Of a stretch of DNA of 64,000 nt, positions 11,075 to 58,523 are shown piece by piece (the stretch's first letter is position 1; each line of letters opens with the position of its first letter). This stretch comes from Halovenus sp. (GTDB lineage Archaea > Halobacteriota > Halobacteria > Halobacteriales > Haloarculaceae). The notes under the pieces were generated by a model. That model saw only the letters and a program-made list of their open reading frames with translations. It had not been told where the DNA came from and did no database searches. The stretch covers positions 14,865 to 78,864 of the forward strand of contig JAZKTU010000001.1 in the NCBI GenBank assembly GCA_036625385.1. The letters are read 5' to 3'. A program made the translations under genes and the position numbers.

Positions 11075-11152
11075 TACTGCCGGCTGTACGTTCGTAAAGA
11101 TATTCGCGACCCCGGGGTGGCGAATTCGTTCACAATGGGACAGCCGGCAGTA
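11075..11152. mobile_element. Family C palindromic mini-element, 78 bp, TTA duplication
   Basis: TIR TACTGCCGGCTGT/ACAGCCGGCAGTA; central palindrome TTCGCGACCCCGGGGTGGCGAA; TTA at 10991-10993 and 11153-11155; similar to 50681-50758. Confidence 0.85.
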
Positions 11153-11160
11153 TTAGCTGA

Positions 11161-11531
11161 TTGCAGGCGTAAGCCCCCTTCCTCAAGGAGCAACCTGCGG
11201 GAGCGAGCAGGGAGGGGATACAGCGCCGTCATCGTTTTATTTTCACTGCACGGCATGGCCTTACTACCCCTGCGGTCGAAGTCGATAGTACGATGCTCAC
11301 CACGTCTCCGATGGTGTTCAAGCGCGACAAGAAGCGCGCACCATCGGTTGTGGTCGAGTGTCCAACAGGGAGGAGTGGGACACTCCAAACCACCCGTGAA
11401 GGGAAGTCGCCTGCGGAGTCTGGAATCCCTGTGCCCACGTCGGGTATAAATTCCGACACAGAAACAGGAAGCCCTGTCCTCAACAAGCGAGGGGCGGGTA
11501 GCCCCGAGCGCGGTAGGTCAGGGTAGTTCAC
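11161..11531 (+). mobile_element. Non-autonomous IS200/IS605 derivative (left and right ends plus tnpB 3'/omega-RNA-like segment, no intact ORF)
   Basis: Left stem CCCCTTCCT...AGGGAGGGG; right end GGAAGCCCTGTCCT...AGGTCAGGGTAGTTCAC; GGAGTGGGACACTCC motif resembling haloarchaeal tnpB 3' ends. Confidence 0.65.
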
Positions 11532-12511
11532 TCGTGGCCCGACACCGGAAGTGGTTCATACGGCTCTTCTAACCAGGCCACGTCAGAGTCATCAAGATCC
11601 AACTCGACTGCCTCGACCGCATCCTCGAGGTGTTCAACGCTCGTCGTCCCGATGATCGGGGCATCGACAGCGTCCTTTCCAAGTAGCCACGCCAGCGATA
11701 TTTGGGCCATCGATGCGTCGTACTCGTCGGAGAGTTCCGCGACCCGTTCGTTGATAATCGGCCCGCCGCCTGACCGGTACTCTTCGTGTCGGTCCTCAAG
11801 CGTTTCCCCGCGTGTCGTCGTAGTCAGTTCCTCGTGCGGGCGGGTCAGATATCCCTGTGCCAGTGGACTCCAGGGAATGACTCCGATGTCTTCTCTCTCA
11901 CAGAGGGGCAACATTTCGCGCTCCTCTTCTCGATAGACGAGATTGTAGTGGTTTTGCATAGTGGCAAACTGTTCGAGGCCCCGTCGCTCGCTCGTTTGGA
12001 GAGCCTCGGCAAATTGGTAAGCCCACATTGAGGAAGCGCCAATGTACCGCACTTGATTGCGTCTGATGAGATCATCGAGCGTCTCGAGCACTGTCTCGAT
12101 TGGCGTATTGTAATCCCACCTGTGGATTTGGTAGAGGTCGACGGTATCCATTCCCAAACGTTCGAGGCTGTGGGAAATATCTTGTTCAACTGCCTTTCGT
12201 GAGAGGCCATTACCTTTCCCGGGAGGGTATGATTCGGGGGTGTACCTCGGATGGGTTTTTGTGGCCACGACCTGGCTTTCTCGGTCGTACTCATCGAGGA
12301 CGTTTCCCAAAATGCGCTCCGACTCCCCCATAGAGTAGACGTTTGCCGTATCGAAGAAATTTATCCCTAGGTCGATAGCCCGCTCGACAATCTCCTTGCT
12401 CTCTTCTTCGTTAAGCACCCACTCCTGCCACTCGCTCGACCCGAAACTCATACAGCCAAGGCAGATTCTGCTTACTGACAACCCTGTGTTACCCAGTGTC
12501 GTATATTCCAT
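11528..12511 (-). CDS. Aldo/keto reductase
   Basis: VSRICLGCMSFG, FFDTANVY, DLYQIHRWD, MQNHYNL, IPWSPLA. Confidence 0.95.
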   Translation of the reverse strand: MEYTTLGNTGLSVSRICLGCMSFGSSEWQEWVLNEEESKEIVERAIDLGINFFDTANVYSMGESERILGNVLDEYDRESQVVATKTHPRYTPESYPPGKGNGLSRKAVEQDISHSLERLGMDTVDLYQIHRWDYNTPIETVLETLDDLIRRNQVRYIGASSMWAYQFAEALQTSERRGLEQFATMQNHYNLVYREEEREMLPLCEREDIGVIPWSPLAQGYLTRPHEELTTTTRGETLEDRHEEYRSGGGPIINERVAELSDEYDASMAQISLAWLLGKDAVDAPIIGTTSVEHLEDAVEAVELDLDDSDVAWLEEPYEPLPVSGHE

Positions 12512-12694
12512 ACCGAAATTAACGCGGTGGTATATATAAAAGTGGAAGCCGGTGTTCCCAAAACACGAGTGGAATTTCGATATCAATTCACAAATTGGCC
12601 GTTTCAAAATCTTATTTATTGTCCTAAATGACTTGCTGATGAGAGAGACGGGTTCAGCACGGTGGGTGGGTTCTACTCCGAACTGGATGTCTGA

Positions 12695-12771
12695 TACTGC
12701 CGGCTATAAGCCTGTGAGCAATTTCGACCCCCGCGGGGTCGAATATCTTCACGTAGTTATAGCCGACAGTA
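12695..12771. mobile_element. Family C mini-element, 77 bp, TGA duplication
   Basis: TGA|TACTGCCGGCTATAA...TTATAGCCGACAGTA|TGA; central palindrome TTCGACCCCCGCGGGGTCGAA. Confidence 0.85.
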
Positions 12772-12867
12772 TGAGTACCTGTACCACGTGGTGATTCACT
12801 GCCTCTATTATCAGCGCGTACTTGGAAAGGTACTTGGTCCAATCAGACCCGACAGAGAGTTCAGACA

Positions 12868-13529
12868 ATGCCCGACAGACCCAGCATCTTAGTCCCGTTA
12901 CGTGTTCTCGAGGGGGAATCAATTCCGGAGGGTGTTCCCGAACTCCTTACGAACGCACACGTCGTCCTGCTTGGCTACCACGTCGTGCGAGACCAGACCG
13001 CGACCGATCAGGCGCGACGCCAGTTCGAAGACCAGGCCACCCGCCGTCTCAACGATTTCACGGCGATACTCGAACACGCGGGGGCGACAGTCGAATCCCA
13101 GCTCGTGTTCACCCACGATGGGCAGACAACGATCGACCGGATGACAGACGAGCATGACTGCCTCGCGGTACTGATTCCAAACGCAACGAGACCGCTGGAG
13201 AATGTCCTCGTCGCGGTCCGCGGGATCGTCGGCATCGATCGGTTTGTCCGCTTAGTTTCGGGGCTGTTCGCGCCGATCGACGTCGACGTAACCCTGTACC
13301 ACGTCGCTCGAGAGGACGAAACTGACGCCGACGTAGAGACGCTGCTCGAGAGATGATCGTCGAGACTTCCGACAACTACGACGCGACCGTCATGGGGGAA
13401 TCCGATCCACCAGTGACGACTTTCTTGTTCGGGATGACTGCGGACCAGATCGCCAGGCAGTTCCTGGGTCCGGTATTCGTGATCCAGCACGGGGGCCTGG
13501 ACGATACCGAGGAGACTGACAACGAGTGA
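12868..13529 (+). pseudogene. Universal stress protein (two USP domains), frameshifted near 13350
   Basis: ORF 12868-13356 (ILVPLRVLEGE, NVLVAVRG); the C-terminal half YDATVMGESDP...FLFG...FLGPVFVIQ continues in another frame to TGA 13527-13529. Confidence 0.75.
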
Positions 13530-13638
13530 TACGGACGGTTGTGATTATTTTCGGCAGGGACGTCCGATATACGGCGTATCAGCCCGCGAAACGTGTATGT
13601 TGTCACAGCAGAGCGGTAACGAGTCACAACCGTCGATA
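13530..13638. mobile_element. Family A palindromic mini-element, 109 bp, TGA duplication
   Basis: TGA|TACGGACGGTTGTGA...TCACAACCGTCGATA|TGA; 4 mismatches to 44636-44744. Confidence 0.9.
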
Positions 13639-13813
13639 TGATCCTCCAGCAGAGTGTGGGTAGACCGAGTACCGGCGCAGTACCTCGTTCCTCCGCATCC
13701 ACCGATCCGAACTGTCCCGATCAGGGGAACCCTCTGTGCTGCATTCGCGCTCCGTATTCACCACGGTCGCTGGAACGTCTCACCGATCGAGAATTTCAAC
13801 GAGGCCGATTTCC

Positions 13814-15187
13814 CTACTCCACGAGCGCCGCTTCCAGCAGTTCGAGGGGATGACGGATGTCGTACCCGGTGCCGTGTTCCATCTGCATCGCGCAGGTCGG
13901 ACACTCCGTCATGCCCACCTCGCCCGACGCGTCCTCCATGTGCTCGAACATCTCCTCGCCGATCTTCATCGACTTCTCGTACTTTTCCGCTTTCCAGCCG
14001 TAGGTGCCCGAGATGCCGGAACAGGACTCACCGACGTCCTCGATACCGACGCCGTCCAGGTCGCGGAACAGTTCGACAGCCTGCCGGTCCAGTCCCTGGT
14101 TGCGGGCGTGGCAGGGGGCGTGGTAGGCGAACTCCTCGGCGAGTCCGTCGTCGATCTCCGCCGCGTCGAGTGCGCCCTGCAGGTCCTCGTGGATGCGCAG
14201 GTACTCGACCGACTCGAAGGTGTTTGCCGCCACGTCGTCGATCCCCTCGATATCGAACAGTTCAGGGTACTCCTGGCGCAGCGCCATCGAACAGGACGTA
14301 CACGAGGCGATGGCGTCGTACCCCTGGTCGACGAGGTCCGCCATCGAGGAGACGTTGACCTCGGCGTGGCGGCGGGCATCGTCGAGCATCCCGTTTGCGA
14401 ACATCGGCGTCCCCGAACACTTCTGCTCGGGAACGACGACTTCGTAGCCGAAGTGCTCGAACACCCGGACCATCGCCCGCCCGACTTCCGGCGTGTTGTA
14501 GTTCGAGTAACAGCCGTGGAAGTACGCGACCTTCCTGTCCGCATCGACGGGGTCGCCGCGGCGCTCCCGGTTCGCCCGGGCACGCTCCCTCGACCCGGCT
14601 GCACCGCCTTCCGCTTGCCACCACTCGCGAAACGTCTCCGGCGCGAACGCGGGGAACTCGCGTTCACGGGTGACACCGAGCGTTTTCTCCATGACCCAGC
14701 GTGCCGGCCCGAAGTTCATGGCGACGTTCGCGAGCCTGGGGACCTTGCTGGCGAACCAGGCCGACAGCCGGTAGTTCGCGAGGATCCGGTTGCGCCAGTA
14801 TTTGAGCGAGGTTTTCGACATGTTCTCGGAGACGTACTCCCCGCGTGCGGTGTTGTGCATCTGGGAGAGCGGAACACCCGCCGGACAGGCGTTGTCACAC
14901 CGCATGCAGTTCGAGCATTCCATCACCGACTCGTCGATGTCGTAGTCGTCCTCGTTCTGTTTGAGACGCCACTGTTCCGGCCCCTGGAACTTCGGACCGG
15001 GGAACTCGTCGTCGACTTCCGCGACCGGACAGTTCGTATCACACGTCGAGCACTTGTAACAGGAGTCCGCGCCGGGGCGCAGGTCGAAGTCGTCGCTGTC
15101 CGGAAAGACGTCGACGGGCTCGAAGTCCTCGCCTGTGTTCGGTTCGACTGGGTCGAAGTCAGTGTCTGAGTGTTCTGCGTCGCTCAT
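13814..15187 (-). CDS. glpC: Anaerobic glycerol-3-phosphate dehydrogenase subunit C
   Basis: Two CxxCxxCxxxCP motifs, YFHGC, YHAPCH. Confidence 0.93.
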   Translation of the reverse strand: MSDAEHSDTDFDPVEPNTGEDFEPVDVFPDSDDFDLRPGADSCYKCSTCDTNCPVAEVDDEFPGPKFQGPEQWRLKQNEDDYDIDESVMECSNCMRCDNACPAGVPLSQMHNTARGEYVSENMSKTSLKYWRNRILANYRLSAWFASKVPRLANVAMNFGPARWVMEKTLGVTREREFPAFAPETFREWWQAEGGAAGSRERARANRERRGDPVDADRKVAYFHGCYSNYNTPEVGRAMVRVFEHFGYEVVVPEQKCSGTPMFANGMLDDARRHAEVNVSSMADLVDQGYDAIASCTSCSMALRQEYPELFDIEGIDDVAANTFESVEYLRIHEDLQGALDAAEIDDGLAEEFAYHAPCHARNQGLDRQAVELFRDLDGVGIEDVGESCSGISGTYGWKAEKYEKSMKIGEEMFEHMEDASGEVGMTECPTCAMQMEHGTGYDIRHPLELLEAALVE

Positions 15188-16458
15188 CGTGCCTCCTGTG
15201 CCGCATCCGTTCCTGCCGCGTAGCCTGTCGCTATCGAGACGCCGCTGCCCGACTTCTCCGCAGCGAAGTCGTAGCCGCCCAGCACTGACCCCGCGGCACG
15301 GAGGTTCTCGAACTCGACGCTCCCGTCAGGCCCGGTCGGGCGGAGCCGCGCGTCCGTCGTGACGCCAAAGCGGGCGAACTGGTGGTCGCCGAAGACGTCC
15401 CCGTCGAACCAGTCGTACCGGTCCTCGGCGTGGGGGACGTGACAGTCGAAGATTGGTTCGTAGACGCGACCGCGGTCCGATTCGACGCCCTTCCCGACCA
15501 GCCCACCCGTCGCGAGGACGTACTGGTCGGCACTGTTTGGAATCCGGGCACCGTTCTTCTCGACGAAGACCCGCTCGATACGGTCCTCGCCCGCGTACCC
15601 GGTCACGGGATTGCCGGTTTCGATGCTGGCGCCGGCCTCGTCGAGCGCCTCGAACAGGGTGTCTTCGAGCCGGAGACCCGGGAGGGACGGCGGTCCCATC
15701 GGAACCTCGAAGACGTCGGTACCGAGTTTCTCGCGCAGGACGGCCCGGACCGTCGCGGAGGCGTCGTCGCCGAGGATCGCCGGAAACCCGACGCGCTCCG
15801 CGCCGTGGAGTTCCTTGTTTACCCGTTCGGCGAGGGCGTCCCGAACCGGGCGGTCGCGGCCCCTGACGGGCACCTCGCCGTTCGTGTCGAGCAGTTTCGC
15901 GTAGCGGGTCACCTTCGCGTCGGCGCGCAGGTCGCCGGGAAACTGTATCGTGACCCCGCGAACGTCGAAGGGGACACCCGCTGCCTCGAGGTGTGCCGCG
16001 ACGTGCTCGGCGTCGAAATCGACCATCGACTCGAGGCCGACCAGCAGGACGTCGCGGTCGTCGCTGGCGAGACCAGCACTCGCACCCGCCGGGTAGCGTG
16101 CGGTCGGTTTCAGCGTCCCGCCGTGGGTCGGGAGGAGAGCGTTCGTCGCGGTGTGGGAGCCACAATAGTCCGGGGCGACGTCGTCGAACATCGTCATCGA
16201 CTCGCGGACGGTTTCGCGGCCGACAGTACGGTAGGGATGGGTCGACGGCAGTTCGGGAATGGCCTCGTAGGGGTCGGTCAGGGGCCCCTTCCCCTCGGGG
16301 GTGTATCCGAGGATATCGACCAGCCCGGACGCGTGCCGGAGGGTACTCTGCTTGTACGAAACGAGGCGCACGTCCGCACCCGCCCGGGCCGCAGCGAGGG
16401 CGCTCGTGAGTCCCGCGAGCCCGCCGCCGACGACCAGCACCTCGGATTCAATCGCCAT
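15184..16458 (-). CDS. glpB: Glycerol-3-phosphate dehydrogenase subunit B
   Basis: [25 protein letters not shown]. Confidence 0.93.
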
Positions 16459-18854: not shown

Positions 18855-20387
18855 ATGACAGAAACCTACGTCGGCGCAATCGACCAGGGGACGACCGGCA
18901 CTCGCTTCATGGTATTCGACCACAGCGGGCAGGCCGTCACAAAGGCATACAAGAAACACGAGCAGATCTACCCGGAACCCGGCTGGGTCGAGCACGACCC
19001 GATGGAGATCTGGGAAAACACCAGGGACGTCGTCACGCAGGCACTGGACAAGGAGAATATCGATCCCGAGCAGCTCGAGGCCATCGGGATCACCAACCAG
19101 CGTGAGACGACCATCGTCTGGGACAAGGAGACCGGCAAGCCCGTCTACAACGCCCTCGTCTGGCAGGACCGCCGGACCACCGACCGCGTCGAGGAAGTCG
19201 AAGCCGAAGACAAAGTCGAGTGGATCCGCGGCAAAACCGGCCTCGAATGCGACGCCTACTTCTCGGCCACCAAAGTCGAGTGGATCCTCGACAACGCGGA
19301 TCCGATCAAACTCCAGCGCATCCGGCCCGAGGACGTCCGCGACCGTGCGGAGGCCGGCGAGTTGCTGATGGGCACTATCGACTCGTGGGTGATATACAAA
19401 CTCACCGGCAACCACATCACGGAGATCTCGAACGCCTCGCGGACGATGCTCTACAACATCCACGACCTGGCCTGGGACCACGAACTCCTCGAGGAGTTCA
19501 ACGTCCCCGAAACCATGCTCCCCGAGGTCCGCCCGTCGGTCGACGAGGAGACCTACGGCTCCACCGATCCGGACGGCTTCCTGGGCGCGGAGGTGCCCGT
19601 CGCCGGCGCCCTGGGCGACCAGCAGGCGGCGCTGTTCGGCCAGACCTGCTTCGACGAAGGCGACGCCAAAAACACCTACGGCACCGGGGCGTTCTATTTG
19701 ATGAACACCGGCAACGACGCCGTCGAGTCCGAGAACGGCTTGCTTACCACCATCGGCTTCCAGGTGTCTGACGAACCGGTTCAGTACGCGCTGGAGGGGT
19801 CGATCTTCATCGCCGGCGCGGCCATCGAATGGCTCGAGGACGTCGAGCTCATCGACGACCCCACCGAGACAGCACGGCTGGCCCAGTCGATCGATTCGAC
19901 TGACGGCGTGTATATGGTCCCGGCATTCACCGGGCTGGGCGTGCCCTACTGGGATGGGCGGGCACGCGGAACCATCGTCGGGATGACCCGCGGGACCCGC
20001 CGGGAACACATCGTCCGGGCGACGCTCGAGGCCATCGCCTACCAGACCCGCGACGTCGCCGAAGCCATGGAGGCCGACTCCGGCATCGAAACGACGACGC
20101 TGCGGGTCGACGGCGGCGCCGTCAAGAACAACTTCCTCTGCCAACTCCAGTCGGACATCATCCAGACGGACATCGCCCGCCCCGAAGTCGACGAGACCAC
20201 CGCGCTGGGGTCGGCCTACGCCGCCGGCCTCGCCGTTGGCTACTGGGATAACATCAACAAGCTCCGATCGAACTGGCAGGTCGACCGCGAGTTCGAGCCG
20301 GAGATGGAAAGTAAGGAAGCCGACGGGATGTACGACCGCTGGGACGACGCCGTCGAGAGATCACTCGACTGGGCAACGGAGGAATAA
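18855..20387 (+). CDS. glpK: Glycerol kinase (copy 1)
   Basis: AIDQGTTGTR, GITNQRET, GDQQAALFGQ, KNTYGTG, ETTALG. Confidence 0.95.
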   Translation: MTETYVGAIDQGTTGTRFMVFDHSGQAVTKAYKKHEQIYPEPGWVEHDPMEIWENTRDVVTQALDKENIDPEQLEAIGITNQRETTIVWDKETGKPVYNALVWQDRRTTDRVEEVEAEDKVEWIRGKTGLECDAYFSATKVEWILDNADPIKLQRIRPEDVRDRAEAGELLMGTIDSWVIYKLTGNHITEISNASRTMLYNIHDLAWDHELLEEFNVPETMLPEVRPSVDEETYGSTDPDGFLGAEVPVAGALGDQQAALFGQTCFDEGDAKNTYGTGAFYLMNTGNDAVESENGLLTTIGFQVSDEPVQYALEGSIFIAGAAIEWLEDVELIDDPTETARLAQSIDSTDGVYMVPAFTGLGVPYWDGRARGTIVGMTRGTRREHIVRATLEAIAYQTRDVAEAMEADSGIETTTLRVDGGAVKNNFLCQLQSDIIQTDIARPEVDETTALGSAYAAGLAVGYWDNINKLRSNWQVDREFEPEMESKEADGMYDRWDDAVERSLDWATEE

Positions 20388-20389
20388 CC

Positions 20390-23670: not shown

Positions 23671-25206
23671 GTGATGGAGCGCACATATATTGGGACGATC
23701 GACCAGGGGACGACCGGCACTCGCTTCATGATATTCGACCACGACGGGCAGATCGTGGGCAGTGCCTACGAACAGCACGAACAGATCTACCCGGAACCCG
23801 GCTGGGTCGAGCACGACCCCGTGGAAATCTGGGAAAACACCAAACAGGTCGTCACACAGGGGCTCGCCCACTCGACGCTCGACCCGACACAGATCGAAGC
23901 GCTCGGTGTCGCCAACCAGCGCGAGACGACGGTCATCTGGGACAGGGAAACCGGCGAACCCGTCTACAACGCTCTCGTCTGGCAGGACCGCCGGACCACC
24001 GACCGCGTCGAGGAAGTCGAAGCCGAGGACAAAGTCGAGTGGATCCGCGGCAAAACCGGCCTCGAGTGCGACGCCTACTTCTCGGCCACCAAAGTCGAGT
24101 GGATCCTCGACAATTCCGACGACATCGGGCCGACCCGCTCGCGGACCCGGAGCCTCCGCGACCGTGCGGAAGCCGGCGAGTTGCTGATGGGCACCATCGA
24201 TTCGTGGCTCATCTACAAACTCACCGGCAACCACGTCACGGATGTGACGAACGCCTCGCGGACGATGCTTTACGACATCCACGACCTGGCCTGGGACCAC
24301 GAACTCCTCGAGGAGTTCAACGTCCCCGAGACGATGCTCCCCGAAGTCCGCCCCTCCTCCGACGAGGACACATATGGCGCCACGGACTCGGACAGCTTCC
24401 TCGGCGCGGAAGTTCCCGTCGCCGGCGCCCTGGGCGACCAGCAGGCGGCCCTGTTCGGCCAGACCTGCTTCGACGCTGGCGACGCCAAAAACACCTACGG
24501 CACCGGGAGCTTCTACCTCATGAACACCGGAACCGAGGCTGTCGAATCCGACCACGGCCTCCTCACCACCATCGGCTTCCAGCTCTCCGGCGAACCCGTC
24601 CAGTACGCACTGGAAGGGGCCATCTTCATCACCGGCGCCGCCATCGAATGGCTCGAAGACGTTAATTTCATCGACGACCCGATACAGGCGGCAGAGTTGG
24701 CACGGTCGGTCGACTCGACCGGGGGCGTCTACATCGTTCCGGCCTTTACCGGACTGGGAGCACCCTACTGGGACGGCCGTGCCCGCGGGACGATCCTCGG
24801 GATAACCCGCGGGACGCGGCGCGAACACATCGTCCGGGCGACACTCGAATCCATCGCTTACCAGACCCGCGACGTCGCCGAAGCCATGGAAGCCGACTCC
24901 GGCGTCGAAACCACCAGCCTCCGCGTCGACGGCGGCGCAGTCAAGAACAATTTCCTCTGCCAGTTGCAATCGGACATCATCCAGACGGACATCGCCCGCC
25001 CCGAAGTCGACGAAACGACCGCACTGGGGTCAGCCTACGCTGCCGGCCTCGCCGTTGGCTACTGGGACGACATCGACGACCTGCGGGCCCACTGGCGGGT
25101 CGACCGCGAGTTCGAGCCCGAGATGGAAAGCGAGGAAGCCAACGGGATGTACGGCCGCTGGGACGACGCCGTCGGGAGAGCACTCGACTGGGCGACCGAA
25201 ACGTAG
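23671..25206 (+). CDS. glpK: Glycerol kinase (copy 2)
   Basis: Same motifs as copy 1; long near-identical DNA tracts. Confidence 0.93.
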   Translation: MMERTYIGTIDQGTTGTRFMIFDHDGQIVGSAYEQHEQIYPEPGWVEHDPVEIWENTKQVVTQGLAHSTLDPTQIEALGVANQRETTVIWDRETGEPVYNALVWQDRRTTDRVEEVEAEDKVEWIRGKTGLECDAYFSATKVEWILDNSDDIGPTRSRTRSLRDRAEAGELLMGTIDSWLIYKLTGNHVTDVTNASRTMLYDIHDLAWDHELLEEFNVPETMLPEVRPSSDEDTYGATDSDSFLGAEVPVAGALGDQQAALFGQTCFDAGDAKNTYGTGSFYLMNTGTEAVESDHGLLTTIGFQLSGEPVQYALEGAIFITGAAIEWLEDVNFIDDPIQAAELARSVDSTGGVYIVPAFTGLGAPYWDGRARGTILGITRGTRREHIVRATLESIAYQTRDVAEAMEADSGVETTSLRVDGGAVKNNFLCQLQSDIIQTDIARPEVDETTALGSAYAAGLAVGYWDDIDDLRAHWRVDREFEPEMESEEANGMYGRWDDAVGRALDWATET

Positions 25207-43561: not shown

Positions 43562-43721
43562 TACGGACTGTGGCGAGTCATTCTGCCGGCTGTACCATTG
43601 TGAACGGATCCGACACCGGGGGTGTCGAATATCTGTCCGAACGGACAGCTGACAGTATCAGTGCCGTTGCGCCCGCACCCAATCGTGCGGTCGTACCGGT
43701 ACATAGTCGCAACAGTCCGTA
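43562..43721. mobile_element. Family A element (shortened) carrying a nested family C element; right TCA = aglF stop
   Basis: TCG|TACGGACTGTGGCGA...TCGCAACAGTCCGTA|TCA. Confidence 0.8.
43581..43657. mobile_element. Family C element, 77 bp, TCA duplication, nested in A
   Basis: TCA|TTCTGCCGGCTGT...ACAGCTGACAGTA|TCA; central CGACACC-GGG-GGTGTCG. Confidence 0.8.
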
Positions 43722-44575: not shown

Positions 44576-44796
44576 TACGGTCGTGCGTGATTCTTTACCG
44601 CCATGGCGGGACAAAACGGGATTTTCAGGGTCTGATACGGACGGTTGTGATTATTTTCGGCAGGGACGTCCGATATACGGCGCATCAGCCCGCGAAACGT
44701 GTATGTTGTCACAGCAGAGCGGTAAAGAGTCACAACCGTCCGTATGAAACGTGGAAATACGCGATCCGGTCGTGAAAATAATCGCAACAATCCGTA
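44576..44796. mobile_element. Family A outer element (109 bp after removing the insert), TCA duplication
   Basis: TCA|TACGGTCGTGCGTGA...TCGCAACAATCCGTA|TCA. Confidence 0.85.
44636..44744. mobile_element. Family A inner element, 109 bp, TGA duplication
   Basis: TGA|TACGGACGGTTGTGA...TCACAACCGTCCGTA|TGA, perfect 15-bp TIR. Confidence 0.9.
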
Positions 44797-47112: not shown

Positions 47113-47191
47113 TACTGTCGGACGGAAGTCATGATATTCTGCTCGTTCCACGTGGGGCGAGTGAAAGTATCAACAGTTCCGTCCGACAGTA
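47113..47191. mobile_element. Family B element, 79 bp, TA duplication
   Basis: Identical (inverted) to 10996-11074. Confidence 0.9.
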
Positions 47192-48465: not shown

Positions 48466-48542
48466 CGCGTCGGGGCTGTCCGTCCGGAGAGAGATCCGAC
48501 ACCCGGGTGTCGAGTGTGTTCACCAGGTTACAGCCGGCAGTC
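48466..48542. mobile_element. Family C element with degenerate left arm
   Basis: GGCTGT...CGACACCCGGGTGTCG...ACAGCCGGCAGTC|TCA, abutting the family A copy. Confidence 0.65.
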
Positions 48543-48545
48543 TCA

Positions 48546-48653
48546 TACGGACTGTTGTGACTCGGTCCTGCCAGGCCGACACAGATCTCGCGAGTCGGGT
48601 TTAAATCGACGGTTCTGTCGGGGCGGTGTCGAAAACAATCACGACAGTCCGTA
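48546..48653. mobile_element. Family A element, 108 bp, TCA duplication (right TCA = stop of the HTH-CBS gene)
   Basis: TCA|TACGGACTGTTGTGA...TCACGACAGTCCGTA|TCA. Confidence 0.9.
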
Positions 48654-49699: not shown

Positions 49700-49774
49700 T
49701 TCTGTCGGCTGTCCGTTCGTCAAAATACTCGGACCGGGGTGTCGAACTGCTTCAAAATGATACAGCCGGCAGTA
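49700..49774. mobile_element. Family C element, 75 bp, CCA duplication
   Basis: CCA|TTCTGTCGGCTGT...ACAGCCGGCAGTA|CCA. Confidence 0.8.
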
Positions 49775-50509: not shown

Positions 50510-50680
50510 ATGGAACGGCTCACCCGCGCAACCCTGTTCGCACTGTACCAGCTGACACTCGTCGCCGGCATCGCGCTGCTGCCGCTGGCGCTCGTGACTC
50601 GCAAGTTCGGATTCAAACTGCCGGTCGACCGGGCAGTGACCCGGACCAAAGAAGCGTACGAACAGGCCTGCCACGCCTGA
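50510..50680 (+). CDS. Small membrane protein upstream of psmB (56 aa)
   Basis: MERLTRATLFALYQLTLVAGIALLPLAL...; TATATAAA at 50471-50478. Confidence 0.7.
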   Translation: MERLTRATLFALYQLTLVAGIALLPLALVTRKFGFKLPVDRAVTRTKEAYEQACHA

Positions 50681-50758
50681 TACTGCCGGCTGTACGTTCG
50701 TCAAGATATTCGCGACCCCGGGGTGACGAATTCGTTCAAAACCTTACAGCCAGCAGTA
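50681..50758. mobile_element. Family C element, 78 bp, TGA duplication (left TGA = stop codon)
   Basis: TGA|TACTGCCGGCTGT...ACAGCCAGCAGTA|TGA. Confidence 0.88.
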
Positions 50759-50890
50759 TGAGCACGGTAAAGAGTGGCGACGACCGGAACGGGTGGGCAG
50801 ACGAGTGAGAAACAGTCGGAGCAGCCGGGTCGGCGACCCCACGGCCTCCAACGGGTACTTTCTTACGTCCCGAACTGGTAGCACGAGGTA

Positions 50891-51871: not shown

Positions 51872-52109
51872 TGTTTCTCACCACGTTTAGAATGCCCTTG
51901 TACTGTGGGTTCCCGAGCGAGTGGATAGACTGACAGATCCACAGGCCCGCAGTAAAGTTCAGCAGGGCAACAAAGGAGAGCCGACCGATTTCGCCCTCGA
52001 CAAAAAACGCCACCACGACGGCGGACACGAGGGCCGCCGCCATGAAGGCATGAGTGACAAGCGAACGAGTCCCGAAATCCTGCAACTGGTGAATTGCGCC
52101 AGAAGCCAT
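51861..52109 (-). CDS. Small membrane protein
   Basis: Two TM helices, LNFTAGLWICQSIHSLGN. Confidence 0.6.
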   Translation of the reverse strand: MASGAIHQLQDFGTRSLVTHAFMAAALVSAVVVAFFVEGEIGRLSFVALLNFTAGLWICQSIHSLGNPQYKGILNVVRNSDG

Positions 52110-52232
52110 ACACTTTCTCAGAGCTACTAGTATTTCAACCCGGTTATTCGAGGGTGAGAGGGGCGGGCCGGCGGGAGCCGGGGCGTCGACGGAAACAGGA
52201 GGATGATATGGCTCGGGCCTGAACGGAACGGT

Positions 52233-53588
52233 ATGGAACTGTTCGGGACGGCGGGAATCCGCGGGCCAGTGACCCGCGTGACTCCCGAACTGGCGCTCGC
52301 TGTCGGACAGGCAGTCGGCCAGGAGATGCCGGGAGAGAGGCCAACGGTGGTCGTCGGCCGTGACGGCCGGGAGACGGGGGCAACGCTCGCTGCAGCACTC
52401 GAAGCAGGACTGACGAGCGCCGGCGCCGACGTCGTCAGAGTAGGTCAGGTCCCGACGCCGACGCTCGCGTACGCCTCCCGGGGCCGCTACGGCGTCATGC
52501 TCACTGCCAGCCACAACCCGCCGCCGGACAACGGTATCAAGCTGTTCGCCGACGGGCAGGAGTTCGACAGCGCAGCCGAAACGAAAATCGAGCGACGGGT
52601 CGAGGCGGAAGACGGGGCCGCCCCGTGGGACGCGTGGGGGGCGACGAGGCGGACAGAGCCACTCCCCGGGTACCGGGCTGCGGTCGTCGAGTACGCCGGC
52701 AACTACGGCGGAGAGCCCGGCGGCATCACTATCGCGGTCGACTGTGGCAACGGGATGGCGAGCCTGGCAACGCCACAGGTCCTCCGGGAACTCGGGGCGG
52801 GCGTCCGGGCACTCCACGCGAACGTCGACGGGTACTTTTCAGCTCGCGAGAGCAAACCGACACCGGAGACGCTATCGGACCTGCGCGCGTTCGTCGCCGA
52901 CGGCGGGGCGGAGTTCGGCCTGGGACACGACGGTGACGCGGACCGCATCGTCGTCGTCGACGACGACGGGGACGTGGTCCACGAGGATACCGTGGTGGCG
53001 ATACTCGCCGCGCACTACACCCGCCGCTGCGACGCCGACGATCCGGTCGTCGTGACGACGCCGAACGCCTCGGCACGGATCGACGAGCGGGTTCGGGCCG
53101 CCGGCGGGCGCGTCGAGCGGGTCCGACTCGGGGCGCTCCACGAGGGGATCGAACGGGTCCGGAAGTCCGGCGGCCCCGGAACGGTCGTCGCCTTCGCCGC
53201 GGAGCCCTGGAAACACATCCACCCGGAACTGGGCGGCTGGATCGACGCCGTCGTGTCCGCGGCTGTCTTCACACAGCTGGTCGCGGCCAGCGGACTCGAA
53301 ACGCTGCGGGAGCCAGTAACCGAGCGTCCATACCGCAAGGAGAGCATCGCCTGTCCGGAAAAGAGCAAGGCTGCAGTCATGGACACACTCGAACGGACGC
53401 TCCCGGACGCGTTCCCGGACGCGACCGTCGAGACAGAGTACGGGATCCGGCTCGAACTGCCGGACAGCTCCTGGACGCTCGTGCGCCCCAGCGGGACGGA
53501 GCCGTACATCCGCATCTACGCCGAAAGCGAGGACGTCGACACGCTGGTGGCGACGGCCCGTGAGCACGTGGAAGCAGCTATCGAGTGA
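52233..53588 (+). CDS. Phosphohexomutase (PMM/PGM/GlmM family)
   Basis: FGTAGIRG, TASHNP, DGDADR, RPSGTEP. Confidence 0.92.
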   Translation: MELFGTAGIRGPVTRVTPELALAVGQAVGQEMPGERPTVVVGRDGRETGATLAAALEAGLTSAGADVVRVGQVPTPTLAYASRGRYGVMLTASHNPPPDNGIKLFADGQEFDSAAETKIERRVEAEDGAAPWDAWGATRRTEPLPGYRAAVVEYAGNYGGEPGGITIAVDCGNGMASLATPQVLRELGAGVRALHANVDGYFSARESKPTPETLSDLRAFVADGGAEFGLGHDGDADRIVVVDDDGDVVHEDTVVAILAAHYTRRCDADDPVVVTTPNASARIDERVRAAGGRVERVRLGALHEGIERVRKSGGPGTVVAFAAEPWKHIHPELGGWIDAVVSAAVFTQLVAASGLETLREPVTERPYRKESIACPEKSKAAVMDTLERTLPDAFPDATVETEYGIRLELPDSSWTLVRPSGTEPYIRIYAESEDVDTLVATAREHVEAAIE

Positions 53589-53622
53589 CGGGCGGGAACG
53601 CACAGTCTCGCGGAGGCAAAAC

Positions 53623-53988
53623 TCACTCCGACGTGTCGCTCGACATCACCTTGCCGGCGAGGGCACGGTTGTGTGCGACCTGCTTGTAGCCCCACTCCCT
53701 GAGTGCGGTGTAGCTGTCGTGCTGGTTGAGTTGGGCGACGACCGACCTGAGCGGGCGACCGATCTCCGACCGGACGAACGCCTGCTCGATTGACGCGCCA
53801 CAGGAGTAGACGGCGCTGTCGGTGACGAAGTGCGAACAGTCCTCGTAGTCCTCGGGCAGTCGGTCACGGAGGTCGTCTGTCAGATCCTCGTAGCCGACGA
53901 TACGCAGGTCAGCCGTGTCCTCGAAGAACTCGGCCCACCAGGTGCAAAAGCCACAGTCGTCGTCGTAGACGAGCACCGGGGTCTCCAT
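53623..53988 (-). CDS. DCC1-like thiol-disulfide oxidoreductase (DUF393)
   Basis: VYDDDCGFC. Confidence 0.85.
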   Translation of the reverse strand: METPVLVYDDDCGFCTWWAEFFEDTADLRIVGYEDLTDDLRDRLPEDYEDCSHFVTDSAVYSCGASIEQAFVRSEIGRPLRSVVAQLNQHDSYTALREWGYKQVAHNRALAGKVMSSDTSE

Positions 53989-54124
53989 ACCTCGCGGTAC
54001 GTGAGGCGGCTACTAATACGTAGTCCCGCTTTTCCCAGCCAGGGCCTTCACGTCGTGGCGCGAACGCCCCGAGCGTTCGGGAACTCGGGCAGTCGGAAGA
54101 ATGGTTGTGGGCCGGTCTCCCGTC

Positions 54125-54211
54125 TCAGATGAGCGAGACTGCGCCGTAGGCAATTGCCGATCCCACCATCAGGACCGTGAAGAAGATGGCAATCCACTGT
54201 TCACTGGTCAT
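54125..54211 (-). CDS. 28-aa single-TM microprotein
   Basis: MTSEQWIAIFFTVLMVGSAIAYGAVSLI; not in the supplied ORF track. Confidence 0.5.
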   Translation of the reverse strand: MTSEQWIAIFFTVLMVGSAIAYGAVSLI

Positions 54212-54298
54212 ACACTGCTTTCGCGGCCACGGGAATTAGGCGTTTCGCTCGGTGGATACCGGAGGCGTGTCGGCGGGAAACACGCAGGACTGATCGGT

Positions 54299-55357
54299 TC
54301 AGGCCACGCGGGCGTCGACGACGACGTGGCGGACCCCCTCACTGTAGCCTTTCACGTCCCGGGTGTCGAGGACCTCGACCGGTCGGTTCGCCCGGCCGGC
54401 TGCCTCGCGGATCCGTCCGACCGGGCGGTCGGGAACGAGGGCGTCCGGCGTCGCCTCGTGGACGTGCAAGACGCCATCCGGAGCCACAGCCGCGAACGCA
54501 CTGTCGAGATACTCGTAGGCGTCGTAGTAGCCCATCACGACGCGGTCGAAGGCGAAGGGTTCGGCACCGTCGGCGGCGGCGTCGAGGCCGCCAGCCACGA
54601 CGTCCCGACAGTCCGCACGGTAGGTCTCGACGCGGTCTTGTACGCCGTTGCTGACGGCGTTCTCGACGAGATATCCGAACGCGGCGGGGTTTCGCTCGAC
54701 CGCCGTCACGCGGGCACCGGCGCGTGCCATCGGGAGTGTGAAGTAGCCGATGCCGGCGAACATATCGAGGACGCGCTCGCCGCAGGTGGGTCGGTCAGAC
54801 CCGCCGACGACGTCTCCCATTCGCGCTCGCTCGGCCTTGTTCCCGGGCGAGAACATCACCTCCGCGAGGTCCATCGCGTAGGTCGTCCCGTGTTCCCGGT
54901 GGACGGTTTCCGTATCCCCTTCCCCGGCGATTACCTCGACGGAGGGCTCGCGGTGTTGACCGTCGATGCCCTCGCGTGCGAGGACAGTGTCAGCGCTCCC
55001 GTGCATCGCCAGAAGGGCGTCGCCGACCTCGCTGGGGCGGACGGCGTCGCCGATGTCTACGAGGATGACGCTCCCGATGACCGCCCACGACCCCGGAACG
55101 TCGACGAGCTCGGCGTCGGTCCAGCCACGCTCGCGCAGGTGGTCAGTGAGTGTCCGGAGGCGGGGTGGTCCCTCCTCGCGGATGACCTCGAGGACGTCAG
55201 TCCCGGTCGGCGGCGCAGTCACCGGGATGGCCACGGTCTCGGAACCACACTCGAAGACGCTGCGGTCGTCGTCGTAGACCCCCTCCTCGCGGAGCGCGCC
55301 GATGACGGCCTGTGCGCGCGCCTTCTCGACGACGGCAGCGAGGTGTTCCCCGGTCAT
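54299..55357 (-). CDS. Trm5/Taw2 family SAM-dependent tRNA-modifying enzyme
   Basis: MFSPGNKAERAR, VLDMFAGIGYF. Confidence 0.85.
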   Translation of the reverse strand: MTGEHLAAVVEKARAQAVIGALREEGVYDDDRSVFECGSETVAIPVTAPPTGTDVLEVIREEGPPRLRTLTDHLRERGWTDAELVDVPGSWAVIGSVILVDIGDAVRPSEVGDALLAMHGSADTVLAREGIDGQHREPSVEVIAGEGDTETVHREHGTTYAMDLAEVMFSPGNKAERARMGDVVGGSDRPTCGERVLDMFAGIGYFTLPMARAGARVTAVERNPAAFGYLVENAVSNGVQDRVETYRADCRDVVAGGLDAAADGAEPFAFDRVVMGYYDAYEYLDSAFAAVAPDGVLHVHEATPDALVPDRPVGRIREAAGRANRPVEVLDTRDVKGYSEGVRHVVVDARVA

Positions 55358-55491
55358 TCCCTGTCGGATGCCGGGGTCGCTGACGGTTATATTTCACTAT
55401 CAACCCGTGAGCGGTCCCCGAGCGTCCCGACAGGCCGGTGTCGTCCCACCCCGCCGAACCTTTCTTGAGGCTGCCCGGACCAGTATCAGGT

Positions 55492-58425
55492 ATGACCACG
55501 TTCGACGCTGGGTCCGTCACGCTCGAGAAGGTCCGCGAGCACGTCTGGGAGATCCCACAGGAGGACGGCATGCGGGTTCCGGCACGCGTGCTCGCGAGCG
55601 AGCGGTTGCTCGAGGAGATCAAGGAGGACAAGACCCTCCAGCAACTCAAGAACACGACGCACCTGCCCGGCATCCAGAAGTACGCCATCTGCATGCCCGA
55701 CGGCCACCAGGGGTACGGCTTCCCCGTGGGCGGGGTCGCGGGCATCGACGCCGAAGACGGCTGTATCAGCCCCGGAGCGGTCGGCTACGACATCAATTGC
55801 CTTCCGTCGGACGCGACGGTTCGTCTCTCCCACGGGAGACACATCAAAATCGGCGACCTACAGTCACGGTTCGAGCACGAGGAAGCGGCAGTCGCAGGCG
55901 ACGAACTCACGACATCGCCGATCAGGTTATTCACCGAATCCGACGAGAAACAGGTCCACGAGATCGAGACAGCAACCGGCGAGTGTCTCAAAGCGACGGA
56001 GGATCATCCGTTTCGCACACCTGACGGGATGGTCGAACTGGATGAACTCGAACCCGGGGACACCGTCCACGTCCAGCCGTTCCGTGGGATCGAACACGAG
56101 AACCCGGCGGACATCACACTGCTCACGGAAGCCGACTTTGCCGACAAGAATCCGCAGATCCGGCGAGTGCTGACCGATCGGGAGGTTCTTCCCCTGTCGA
56201 CGGCAGACGAAATCTTCGATCGCTTGCTCAAGGTTATCGGGTTCTTCACTGGCGACGGTTCGTTCGGCGGCGAGGGCCAGACGCGGTTCTACGGTGATCC
56301 CGAAGATCTAGAACAGATCCGGCAGGATGTCAGCGAGATAGGATTCAAACCTTCGAGGATCGACTCGCGCGACCGGAACCACGAGATAGACGGTAACACG
56401 TTCGAGTCAACCGAACACAGCTTCAAAACGACCTCGAAAGCGTTCCGGTTGCTTTTGCAAAAACTCGGCGCACCAGTCGGTGAAAAGATCGCATCGGGGT
56501 TCGAGACGCCCTGGTATTTCGAGGACCTTACCGACTGGCAGAAGGCGCTGTACTACTCTGCATACTTCGGTGCGGAGATGAACGCACCCGCGCCCCAACA
56601 CGACATGACCCTCTACCGCCCGAAAGTCTCGCAAAACCGCACAGTCGAAACCGTCGCAGCCGGTCGGTCGTTCCTCGAAAACCTCTCGCAGTTTTTCGAT
56701 GATATCGGCATTGAAACCAACCAAATGGAGGAACTCGAAGCCAGTACGAACAGTAATGCCGACATTGTCCGTCTCCGTCTTGGCGTCAAGAACGACACGG
56801 AGAACCTACGCAGGTTCTTTTCAAAAGTTGGATACCGATACGATCGGGCGAAACAGCGGAAAGCGATCAAGGCGATACAGTATCTCAAAACGAAAGAAGC
56901 GGAGATCCGACGACGGGAGCGGATGGCAAGCCAGGCAAAAGCACGTGCTGACGGCGGGGCAGCACCGCGGGATATCAACGACGAGTGCGAGAGAAACGAC
57001 CGTTTCATCGAGCGGAGTCCCTGGAGCGGGCGCTCAGGACGGCCGCGCCCGGGTGATGAGTTCCCGACGTTCGAGGCGTTCTGTAACTCGCTCGAGGTCA
57101 ACAACGACATGACGGTCAAGACGAAAATCGTCAGTATCGACGAAGCCGGAACGGAACCCGTCTACGATATTGGCGTCGAACACGATGCTCATAATTTCCT
57201 CGCAGATGGATTCGTAGTCTCGAACTGCGGAGTGAGAATGCTAAAGACAAATCTGGAATACGACGATATAAAAGGCCACGAGGAGGAACTCGTCGGGGCG
57301 CTGTTCGATGGTATTCCGTCGGGCCTGGGCGCGGGCGGCGTCTTCGAGGGGTCGCGCGGGGACGTCGAGGGGATACTCGAGCGGGGTGTCGACTGGGCAG
57401 TCGAGCAGGGGTATGGCATCGAGTCGGACCTCACCCACTGCGAAGACGAGGGGTTCCGGCCGGAGGCCGACGCGAGCGCCGTCTCGCAGAAGGCGAAAGA
57501 CCGCGGCAGCAACCAGGTGGGCAGTCTCGGCAGCGGCAATCACTTCCTCGAGGTCCAGCGCGTGACCGACGTCTACCGCGAGGACGTGGCCAGGGACTTC
57601 GGCCTCGAGCGGGACCAGGTCGTCGTGCTCATCCACTGTGGCTCCCGCGGACTCGGCCACCAGGTGTGTACCGACTACCTGCGTGATATCGAGCAGACCC
57701 ACCAGGGACTCCTGGACCGGCTCCCCGACAAGGAATTGGCCGCGGCCCCCGCCGGCTCGCAGCTTGCAGAAGAGTACTACGGGGCGATGTGTGCGGCCAT
57801 CAACTTCGCGTGGGTCAACCGCCAGCTCGTCATGCACCGCACCCGCGAGGTGTTCGCCGACGTGTTCGACCGTCCGTGGGAGGACATGGGGATGGAGTTG
57901 CTCTACGACGTGGCCCACAACATCGCAAAGCGGGAACTCCACGACGTGGCGGTCGACCCCGAGGGACAACCGGCGGGGAAGGGGGAGGCCGTCGACCAGG
58001 AACAGAGGGAACTGTTCGTCCACCGGAAAGGGGCGACGCGGGCGTTCCCCGCCGGCCACCCGGAACTCCCGCCGGTCTACAGCGACGTCGGCCAGCCGAT
58101 CATCATCCCGGGGAGTATGGGGGCGGGAAGCTACGTTCTCAGAGGGGGCGAGCAGTCGATGGCAGAGACCTTCGGCTCGACAGCCCACGGTGCCGGGCGA
58201 CTCATGTCCCGGACGCAGGCCAAAAACGAGTACTGGGGCGAGGACGTCAGAGACGGCCTGCGCGAACAGAGCAGCATCTACGTCAAGGCACAGAGCGGCG
58301 CGACGATCGCCGAGGAAGCCCCGGGCGTCTACAAGGACGTCGACGAGGTGGTGCGGGTCTCGGACGCGCTGGGCATCGGCGACCGCGTCGCGCGGACCTA
58401 CCCCGTCTGCAACATCAAAGGGTAA
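55492..58425 (+). CDS. rtcB: RNA-splicing ligase RtcB precursor containing an intein
   Basis: MPDGHQGYGFP, GYDIN|C, GSLGSGNHFLE, HRKGATR, HGAGR, EEAPGVYKD. Confidence 0.95.
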   Translation: MTTFDAGSVTLEKVREHVWEIPQEDGMRVPARVLASERLLEEIKEDKTLQQLKNTTHLPGIQKYAICMPDGHQGYGFPVGGVAGIDAEDGCISPGAVGYDINCLPSDATVRLSHGRHIKIGDLQSRFEHEEAAVAGDELTTSPIRLFTESDEKQVHEIETATGECLKATEDHPFRTPDGMVELDELEPGDTVHVQPFRGIEHENPADITLLTEADFADKNPQIRRVLTDREVLPLSTADEIFDRLLKVIGFFTGDGSFGGEGQTRFYGDPEDLEQIRQDVSEIGFKPSRIDSRDRNHEIDGNTFESTEHSFKTTSKAFRLLLQKLGAPVGEKIASGFETPWYFEDLTDWQKALYYSAYFGAEMNAPAPQHDMTLYRPKVSQNRTVETVAAGRSFLENLSQFFDDIGIETNQMEELEASTNSNADIVRLRLGVKNDTENLRRFFSKVGYRYDRAKQRKAIKAIQYLKTKEAEIRRRERMASQAKARADGGAAPRDINDECERNDRFIERSPWSGRSGRPRPGDEFPTFEAFCNSLEVNNDMTVKTKIVSIDEAGTEPVYDIGVEHDAHNFLADGFVVSNCGVRMLKTNLEYDDIKGHEEELVGALFDGIPSGLGAGGVFEGSRGDVEGILERGVDWAVEQGYGIESDLTHCEDEGFRPEADASAVSQKAKDRGSNQVGSLGSGNHFLEVQRVTDVYREDVARDFGLERDQVVVLIHCGSRGLGHQVCTDYLRDIEQTHQGLLDRLPDKELAAAPAGSQLAEEYYGAMCAAINFAWVNRQLVMHRTREVFADVFDRPWEDMGMELLYDVAHNIAKRELHDVAVDPEGQPAGKGEAVDQEQRELFVHRKGATRAFPAGHPELPPVYSDVGQPIIIPGSMGAGSYVLRGGEQSMAETFGSTAHGAGRLMSRTQAKNEYWGEDVRDGLREQSSIYVKAQSGATIAEEAPGVYKDVDEVVRVSDALGIGDRVARTYPVCNIKG
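55798..57225 (+). mobile_element. Intein with LAGLIDADG homing endonuclease (476 aa)
   Basis: Starts CLPSD; block B LKATEDHPF; LAGLIDADG-like IGFFTGDG and SAYFGAE; block F/G VYDIGV...NFLADGFVVSN|C. Confidence 0.92.
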
Positions 58426-58461
58426 CACGCGCAGTCTCGCCGGGCCACTGCTGTGGACTCA

Positions 58462-58523
58462 CACTGCCGGCTGTAACTTCCTGGAGCTATTTGCCACTAT
58501 GAGGCGTAACGGACGGGCAGGTA
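58462..58523. mobile_element. Degenerate family C remnant
   Basis: TCA|CACTGCCGGCTGTAAC; right arm poorly preserved. Confidence 0.45.

What the first reader, a model, noticed from the sequence alone, without database searches (positions are those of the whole stretch)
11075..58523. Family C: 75-78 bp TACTG...CAGTA hairpin elements with 3-bp duplications
Seen: copies at 11075-11152 (TTA/TTA), 12695-12771 (TGA/TGA), 43581-43657 (TCA/TCA), 49700-49774 (CCA/CCA) and 50681-50758 (TGA/TGA, the stop of the small gene before psmB), with remnants at 48466 and 58462. Each has a terminal IR of about 13 bp and usually a separate central palindrome (e.g. TTCGACCCCCGCGGGGTCGAA, CGACACCCGGGTGTCG), so the whole element can fold as one long rod. 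The flanking triplet varies between copies but matches on both sides, which is strong evidence of true target-site duplication. The family shares the TAC terminus and TGA-biased target with family A, which suggests a shared or related enzyme (inference).
Basis: partly seen in the sequence, partly recalled or inferred. Interest (0 to 1): 0.75.

Follow-up and report, generated by a model that had tools for sequence, protein, structure and literature searches.

The report
IS630 mini-transposon duplicating three bases
These 78-base hairpins are copies of a gene-less mobile DNA element found at about 300 places in this salt-loving archaeon's genome; each insertion duplicates a three-base T-N-A target, and the element is likely moved by a branch of IS630 transposases whose own insertions duplicate three bases instead of the family's textbook two.

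Summary
Confirmed. Family C is a 78-bp MITE with 317 loci in this haloarchaeal genome. 119 of 177 intact, free-standing copies carry a 3-bp direct repeat (shuffles: mean 54, max 73; 24 of 26 among identical copies), target C-T-N-A-G. An orthologous empty site has one TGA. The genome holds an intact 1,069-bp IS630 element with TAC ends and TCA/TCA flanks; its ends resemble family C, and 35 of 49 close relatives show 3-bp TNA repeats. Sister IS630s with similar ends duplicate TA. A second TNA clade matches families A and B; one TNA clade is rejected (AU p about 1e-6). Against: family C and its candidate transposase do not co-occur across 130 genomes (7 of 18 vs 38 of 112); no transposition assay. 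The rod fold is real but shows no strand bias, so no RNA function is indicated. The scan noted TNA-duplicating IS630 MITEs in bacteria, and such haloarchaeal elements without a partner, before on other DNA. New variant of a known kind.

The parts
11075..11152 (+). Family C copy, 78 bp; right flank TTA at 11153-11155; original left flank TTA at 10991-10993
10994..11076 (.). Family D element (10996-11074, 79 bp) with TA duplication (10994-10995 and 11075-11076), inserted into the first TA of the C copy
12695..12771 (-). Family C copy, 77 bp, TGA/TGA; its end at 12771 matches the right end of the IS630 on contig C176 at 23 of 29 bases
43581..43657 (-). Family C copy, 77 bp, TCA/TCA, one terminal base changed
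48474..48541 (+). Decayed family C copy, next to a family A element starting at 48546
49700..49774 (+). Family C copy, 75 bp, non-canonical CCA/CCA duplication
50681..50758 (+). Family C copy, 78 bp, TGA/TGA; left TGA (50678-50680) is the stop codon of a 56-codon gene upstream of psmB; absent at the orthologous site in 15 of 15 relatives where the gene was found
50510..50680 (+). Small conserved host gene (56 codons) whose stop codon was the target
58462..58500 (+). Left-end remnant of family C preceded by TCA (weak; missed by the profile search)

Best explanation
Family C is a 78-bp non-autonomous DNA transposon (MITE) that duplicates a 3-bp T-N-A target and is likely cut and pasted in trans by an IS630-family transposase of a haloarchaeal clade that likely joins the element's ends to target strands three bases apart instead of two. 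Shown: copy number, ends, target C-T-N-A-G, 3-bp duplication, an intact IS630 (contig C176, 1,069 bp, orfA/orfB with an A7 frameshift site, DD34E) with the same terminal TAC, similar ends and TCA/TCA flanks, and TNA duplications around most of its relatives. Inferred: that this clade's enzyme binds family C ends and moves it; that the chemistry is the Tc1/mariner/IS630 cut-and-paste reaction with a 3-nt stagger; that copies pile up between genes and on TGA stop codons because the duplication restores the stop and insertions inside genes are purged. The element is two IS-like ends of about 29 bp around a 20-bp palindrome, which explains the rod fold without an RNA function.
For: 3-bp repeats 119/177 vs shuffle mean 54; decay with age; young copies in G034 14/15. 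Empty site: one contig of run X4 replaces 50668-50772 by 24 letters with a single TGA in register, the exact length of the empty allele; no family C at this site in 15 of 15 orthologous loci. IS630 in the same genome with TCA/TCA flanks (NF033545 and DDE_3; model matches Sleeping Beauty and Mos1 catalytic domains). Relatives: 35 of 49 C-clade elements with both flanks have a 3-bp TNA repeat, 11 have TNA on both sides with different middle bases, 1 TA, 2 other. End likeness: 110 of 177 C copies match the IS right end at 19 or more of 29 bases, against 1 other site among 53,403 genomic TAC-starting 29-mers, itself an IS630 end remnant; 287 of 354 C ends score best on the C-clade end profile. Internal control: end profiles predict duplication type for other families in this genome: B and A match the second TNA clade and show TNA (36/37, 26/29, 17/17), D matches the TA clade and shows TA (31/32). 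47 of 159 copies with an outward-facing stop triplet end a gene-like ORF vs 190 of 2111 background CTGAG; 2 of 119 lie inside gene-like frames vs 530 of 1957.
Against: No genome-level co-occurrence: among 130 family genomes at least 95% complete, the family C pattern is in 7 of 18 with a C-clade transposase match (64% identity or more, my cut) and 38 of 112 without; for 10 or more copies, 2 of 18 vs 11 of 112. G034 (43 pattern matches, many identical) and G024 (36) lack a C-clade transposase; G024 has no IS630 match at all. Three genomes with C-clade IS copies have no C pattern. The C176 element's own left end is a poorer match (11-20 of 29 for window copies) than ends of other clade members, so the true partner may be another member. 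67 of 354 C ends score better on other clades. No residue shared by both TNA clades and absent from TA clades stood out. No biochemical test. The alternative boundary (element one base longer at each end, 1-bp duplication) is only weakly excluded.
Confidence: 0.8

Rival explanations
1. Same IS630 partner, but the element is one base longer at each end (A-TAC...GTA-T) and the duplication is 1 bp; the TA clade would then insert bluntly.
For: With T-N-A targets the two readings give the same sequence. Some flank pairs (CGA/TGA, CCA/TCA, GCA/TCA types) fit this reading.
Against: [quoted passage not shown] The fitting pairs are also expected from later mutation.
Confidence: 0.05
2. Family C is moved by a different DDE transposase with 3-bp TNA duplication, such as the IS5 family IS1031 group (TNA feature recalled, not from a call), or by a domesticated host enzyme.
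For: No co-occurrence with the C clade; complete genomes with many copies and no C-clade enzyme.
Against: PF13586 has no match in G000, G024, G034, G015 or G011; the DDE_Tnp_1 elements inspected have unrelated ends; family C ends match IS630 ends far above background. A domesticated enzyme was not searched for.
Confidence: 0.1
3. REPIN- or PATE-like hairpin element moved as single-stranded DNA by an HUH (Y1) transposase.
For: Whole element folds as a rod in DNA and RNA; compensated pairs in the terminal and central stems; the genome has PATE-like palindromes at contig ends.
Against: IS605-type elements and PATEs are described as making no target duplication (PMC3119063, passages); 3-bp duplication and IS630-like ends are shown here. 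Y1 transposases were not searched for.
Confidence: 0.03
4. A host-maintained structured RNA or terminator family placed at gene ends.
For: Stable fold; compensated changes at pairs 6-73 (15 of 104), 14-65 (11) and 33-46 (23); enrichment after stop codons.
Against: No Rfam match; no orientation bias (25:22); G-T and A-C mismatches about equal at most pairs; site not conserved in 15 relatives; compensated pairs mark sub-families and suit DNA symmetry equally. Secondary effects on transcripts of single copies are not excluded.
Confidence: 0.02

Closest known systems
IS630 family / Tc1-mariner (IS630, ISY100, Mos1, Sleeping Beauty)
   Same: Candidate partner has HTH + DDE_3 domains, DD34E spacing, NF033545 match, fold like Sleeping Beauty and Mos1; its sister clades duplicate TA, often in CTAG.
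   Different: These are described as integrating with a 2-bp stagger strictly at TA (PMC5481204 and PMC2170065, passages); the C clade and family C duplicate T-N-A in C-T-N-A-G.
Made1, the 80-bp palindromic MITE of Hsmar1
   Same: About 80 bp, palindromic, non-autonomous, derived from an IS630-Tc1-mariner element (PMC1784062, passages).
   Different: Eukaryotic; two 37-bp repeats and 6-bp spacer; family C has 13-14-bp perfect repeats inside about 29-bp IS-like ends, a separate central palindrome and 3-bp duplications.
Short mobile repeats (SMR-A about 110 bp, SMR-B HqIRS41 80 bp) of Haloquadratum walsbyi
   Same: Haloarchaeal, 80 and about 110 bp, inverted terminal repeats, no known transposase partner, 'mode of mobilization enigmatic' (PMC3119063, passages); the same two size classes occur here.
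   Different: SMRs are reported to cause no target duplication; family C does. Their sequences are in .doc supplements that could not be read, so identity was not tested.
Fot elements (pogo group) with TAA duplications
   Same: An IS630-Tc1-mariner lineage with a 3-bp duplication (341 of 385 Fot elements TAA; PMC7386202, passages).
   Different: Eukaryotic, fixed TAA; here archaeal IS630 with a free middle base.
IS5 family IS1031 group and its MITEs (recalled)
   Same: 3-bp TNA duplication (recalled, not from a call).
   Different: No PF13586 match in five genomes tested; family C ends resemble IS630 ends instead.

Membership tests
MITE (non-autonomous class II element) | Short, non-coding, multi-copy | tested here: met
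   78 bp modal length (131 of 183), 317 loci
MITE (non-autonomous class II element) | Terminal inverted repeats | tested here: met
   13-14 bp, paired in 92-104 of 104 sequences at positions 1-13
MITE (non-autonomous class II element) | Target-site duplication | tested here: met
   119/177 vs shuffle mean 54; empty site with one TGA
MITE (non-autonomous class II element) | Ends related to an autonomous transposon with the same duplication | tested here: met
   C176 IS630 and clade: ends match, 35/49 TNA
MITE (non-autonomous class II element) | Mobilised in trans by that transposase | not testable with these tools
   Needs an assay; co-occurrence across genomes gave no support
IS630 family (candidate partner on C176) | HTH plus DDE transposase of IS630 type | tested here: met
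   NF033545 147 bits, DDE_3, HTH_32/33; D15, D92, E127; fold match to SB and Mos1
IS630 family (candidate partner on C176) | About 1.1 kb with imperfect terminal inverted repeats, often two frameshifted ORFs (layout recalled) | tested here: met
   1,069 bp, two overlapping ORFs, 22 of 29 end bases complementary
IS630 family (candidate partner on C176) | TA target with 2-bp duplication | tested here: not met
   TCA/TCA; clade 35/49 TNA, 1/49 TA. It is an IS630 by protein and a variant by target.
IS5 family IS1031-group MITE | Cognate DDE_Tnp_1_2 transposase with matching ends | tested here: not met
   No PF13586 match in 5 of 5 genomes; DDE_Tnp_1 loci inspected have other ends
PATE / REPIN (HUH-mobilised) | No terminal inverted repeats and no target duplication (PATE definition, PMC3119063) | tested here: not met
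   Both are present
PATE / REPIN (HUH-mobilised) | Linked Y1/RAYT transposase | not tested
   No search for Y1 transposases was run
Haloquadratum SMR | Sequence identity with HqIRS40-43 or HqIRS55 | not testable with these tools
   Supplements unreadable
Haloquadratum SMR | No target duplication | tested here: not met
   3-bp duplication
Known structured RNA family | Rfam match at gathering score | tested here: not met
   0 matches in the window

The most novel reading that the evidence does not exclude
Haloarchaeal IS630 transposases switched from the 2-bp TA stagger to a 3-bp TNA stagger at least twice, each beside a TA-type sister at about 50% identity with similar ends, and this one genome carries a MITE fleet for each type (C for the first TNA clade, A and B for the second, D for a TA clade). 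These pairs are natural near-matched enzymes for finding what sets stagger length in the Tc1/mariner/IS630 group; TNA targeting lets elements sit on TGA stop codons and gives far more sites than CTAG; and the fixed 78-80 and 108-109 bp sizes with a central palindrome would reflect the geometry needed to pair the ends of very short elements. It would also name IS630 enzymes as movers of the 'enigmatic' short mobile repeats of haloarchaea.
Probability: 0.55. Interest if true: 0.6.

Novelty: new variant of a known kind. Interest (0 to 1): 0.45.

Why it matters
MITEs are an ordinary kind of selfish DNA, so the element alone is not surprising. Two things lift it. First, the prokaryotic IS630 family is described in the papers read as strictly TA-specific with a 2-bp stagger; here two separate archaeal clades duplicate three bases, each with a close TA-type sister, which makes the determinant of stagger length directly testable in the enzyme group that supplies Sleeping Beauty and mariner tools. 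Second, it supplies a candidate mover for abundant short haloarchaeal repeats whose mobilisation was called enigmatic, and the element occurs in a laboratory species (Haloarcula hispanica plasmid pHH400, on a stop codon). Three-base duplications are already known in eukaryotic relatives (Fot), and earlier notes of this scan report TNA-type IS630 in bacteria, so this is a variant, not a new kind.

Tried and rejected
Unbiased search for long elements with perfect 10-bp family ends and TNA flanks in the genome gave only pairs of neighbouring MITEs and chance hits. IS5-type partner: no PF13586 match; DDE_Tnp_1 loci had other ends. First automatic end calls on IS loci were unreliable and were redone with anchored motifs. 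Co-occurrence of family C and the C clade: none. Search for residues shared by both TNA clades and absent in TA clades: four weak columns, none convincing. Sequencing runs: no RNA holder listed, so expression is untested; contigs laid on 10300-13300 gave no empty-allele joint. Orthologous loci of the 50681 site: 15 of 24 fetched loci held the small gene; their 3' flanks are too diverged for base-level alignment (one search used a wrong frame and was discarded). No C-clade match in the phage collection. Rfam: none. Tree rows: 87 distinct labelled sequences, of which 30 of 40 distant outgroup rows were dropped; loci without a clear TA or TNA call, with more than one stop, or short, and L009, were left out. 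Literature: ten searches turned up no paper on TNA-duplicating prokaryotic IS630 in their listings; most listed papers were not opened, reviews of archaeal and bacterial IS were not held, ISfinder could not be consulted, and the Haloquadratum supplements could not be read, so prior description is not excluded.
Full report
Setting. The window is G000:C120:14865-78864 of a 2.98-Mb, 213-contig assembly, 85% complete, 65% G+C. Halophile-specific gene families (TrmB, AglF) and an archaeal proteasome beta gene mark it as a haloarchaeon.

The observation. The five copies, their terminal repeats and central palindromes are as described. Four show the stated triplet directly on both sides. At 11075 the left neighbour is another element, family D (10996-11074), which inserted into the first TA of the C copy and duplicated it; removing it restores TTA/TTA. 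The same nesting occurs at three other intact copies in the genome. A profile from the five copies finds 317 loci, 22.8 kb in all. Of 183 with TAC..GTA ends, 177 stand free, and 119 of these have a 3-bp direct repeat (2000 shuffles: mean 54, maximum 73); other repeat lengths are at chance. The target logo is palindromic, C-T-N-A-G with N mostly C or G. The repeat is perfect in 24 of 26 copies that have an identical twin, 30 of 36 at 1-2 differences, 18 of 27 at 3-5, 26 of 55 at 6-10 and 21 of 33 beyond, as expected for duplications that decay. In G034, 14 of the 15 copies fetched (of 43 pattern matches) show it; in G024, 3 of 5 fetched.

Empty sites. One contig of run X4, from a related organism, carries 24 letters in place of 50668-50772, with a single TGA in the same register: the exact length of the site without the element and one TGA. 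This is one contig. In 15 of 24 fetched relatives' loci the small gene upstream of psmB was found; none has family C there, and one (G027) has a different 109-bp TAG-ended element with TGA on both sides on the same stop codon.

Where copies sit. 47 of 159 copies with an outward-facing stop triplet end an ORF of 80 or more codons with high GC3, against 190 of 2111 background CTGAG sites; 2 of 119 lie deep inside gene-like frames against 530 of 1957 background sites (crude ORF criteria). At gene ends the stop-side triplet is kept while the far copy decays. I infer purifying selection, not stop-codon recognition.

The fold. Copies fold as rods (z -3.3 to -7.6), and some pairs show compensated changes. 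But there is no Rfam match, no orientation bias to the terminated gene (25:22), and the paired variants mark sub-families. The rod follows from two related ends around a palindrome. No RNA run was listed, so transcription is untested.

The candidate enzyme. Family searches found an intact IS630 on contig C176, 224-1292: 1,069 bp, two ORFs overlapping at an A7 run, HTH and DDE_3 domains, NF033545 above cut-off, flanked by TCA/TCA in CTCAG. The catalytic part has D15, D92, E127; its model (mean pLDDT 85) matches Sleeping Beauty and Mos1 best. Its right end matches one end of copy 12695 at 23 of 29 bases; 110 of 177 copies reach 19 or more, while among 53,403 other genomic 29-mers starting TAC only one site outside the IS does, an end remnant of another IS630 on C18. 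77 related loci from haloarchaeal genomes gave 55 end calls, 53 with both flanks; 49 belong to the close clade: 35 have a 3-bp TNA repeat, 11 TNA on both sides with unlike middles (two of them look like a reciprocal exchange between copies), 1 TA, 2 other. The other 4, at 52-55% identity and with similar TAC ends, have TA. More distant IS630s from relatives and metagenomes also have TA. A second group at 35-41% identity has ends like families A and B and TNA repeats (18 of 24 with a call; two loci share one site); its sister at 52% has TA. On a tree of 57 catalytic domains the two TNA groups are separate supported clades, and holding them together is rejected (AU p 1.3e-6): two gains, or one gain and several losses. 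End profiles of the three IS groups sort this genome's MITEs in line with their duplications: C to the first TNA clade (287 of 354 ends), A and B to the second (TNA 26/29, 17/17, 36/37), D to the TA group (TA 31/32); family F (TA 15/20) fits none.

Results against. Family C and the C clade do not co-occur beyond chance in 130 family genomes (7/18 vs 38/112, p 0.79). G034 and G024, both near complete, have many copies and no C-clade enzyme, G024 no IS630 at all; three genomes with C-clade IS copies have no family C pattern. Loss of the IS while MITEs persist would explain this, but that is inference. The C176 element is single-copy in the assembly and its left end fits family C less well than other clade members do. 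No shared residue explains the TNA switch. An excess of TGA/CGA flank pairs is not explained beyond mutation of the free copy.

Mechanism. By established IS630/mariner chemistry (PMC2170065, abstract and passages; PMC5481204, passages) the transposase binds both ends, excises the element and joins its 3' ends to staggered target positions; repair duplicates the bases between. For family C the stagger is inferred to be three bases across T-N-A. The rival boundary (one base longer, 1-bp duplication) gives the same sequence at TNA sites and is only weakly excluded by CCA/CCA, TCG/TCG and CA/CA cases.

Distribution. The pattern is in 45 of 130 family genomes, 9 of 19 genera, and on plasmids of Haloarcula, Halomicrobium and Haloplanus; the H. 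hispanica copy inspected has TCA/TCA and abuts an annotated gene end. RefSeq names clade members only 'IS630 family transposase'.

Comparison with the known. Closest are IS630/Tc1-mariner elements and their MITEs, such as the 80-bp Made1 (PMC1784062, passages). Three-base duplications occur in eukaryotic Fot elements (PMC7386202, passages) and TATA in Sailor (PMC8533490, passages). Haloquadratum's 80- and 110-bp short mobile repeats have unknown movers but are reported without duplication (PMC3119063, passages; supplements unreadable, and they may bear on novelty). PMC7002104 (passages) does not mention IS630. Ten searches showed no paper on TNA-type prokaryotic IS630 in their listings; this is not proof of absence. 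Earlier notes of this scan (unchecked) report TNA-type IS630 MITEs in bacteria and haloarchaeal TNA MITEs without a partner; my reading was written down before seeing them.

Verdict. A real MITE with true 3-bp duplications (about 0.95), likely moved by a TNA-type IS630 clade (about 0.8). New variant of a known kind; interest 0.45.

Noticed in passing
L008, L009, L012, L015 (G034:C1 near 131214, 235552, 2230946, 2818645): A 1,113-bp IS630-family element (ends GAGTGG..CCACTC) sits in the loop of a DNA hairpin in 4 of 4 copies with no target duplication; for L009 the host is an 80-bp TAG-ended element whose uninterrupted form occurs twice elsewhere in G034. This matches the described behaviour of Haloquadratum SMR-A (no duplication, inside palindromes) and may be more novel than family C. 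Not found in G000.
   Followed up: partly
window 10996-11074 and 47113-47191: Family D: 79-bp element, 32 full copies of only 2 distinct sequences, TA duplication in 31; very young; ends fit the TA-type IS630 group; often nested in C or A copies.
   Followed up: yes
window 13530, 32425, 44576-44796, 47091, 48546 (family A); 47332 (family B end): Families A (108-109 bp) and B (80 bp) have TNA duplications and ends matching a second IS630 clade (L142, L144, L233-L262); no member of that clade was found in this assembly.
   Followed up: yes
genome-wide: Element lengths fall in two classes, 78-80 bp (B, C, D) and 108-109 bp (A, F), about three helical turns apart; B and C share nearly the same central palindrome although their ends fit different transposase clades.
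   Followed up: no
genome-wide family F (e.g. C4:4722): 109-bp family with TCCAC ends and 2-bp duplications (TA 15, AA 2, AT 1, TT 1 of 20); no matching IS group found.
   Followed up: partly
L265 (G027:C91): An unrelated 109-bp TAG-ended element inserted independently on the same TGA stop codon as window copy 50681.
   Followed up: yes
genome-wide family C flanks: Excess of TGA/CGA (and equivalent TCG/TCA) flank pairs, 14 of 177, mostly at gene ends; only partly explained by mutation of the free copy.
   Followed up: partly
L068, L253, L120: TNA-type elements with an occasional 2-bp duplication (TA, TA, CA), suggesting the stagger is not absolute.
   Followed up: no
contig ends of G000 (family E): 41 copies of a short palindrome-bearing end at many contig breaks, PATE- or IS200/IS605-like by appearance.
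   Followed up: no
window 55438-58425: Intein-containing RtcB family gene (NF038162 below cut-off).
   Followed up: no
window 18864-19622 and 23683-24441: Two paralogous ORFs of about 510 codons, 79-88% identical in DNA, 4,819 bp apart.
   Followed up: no
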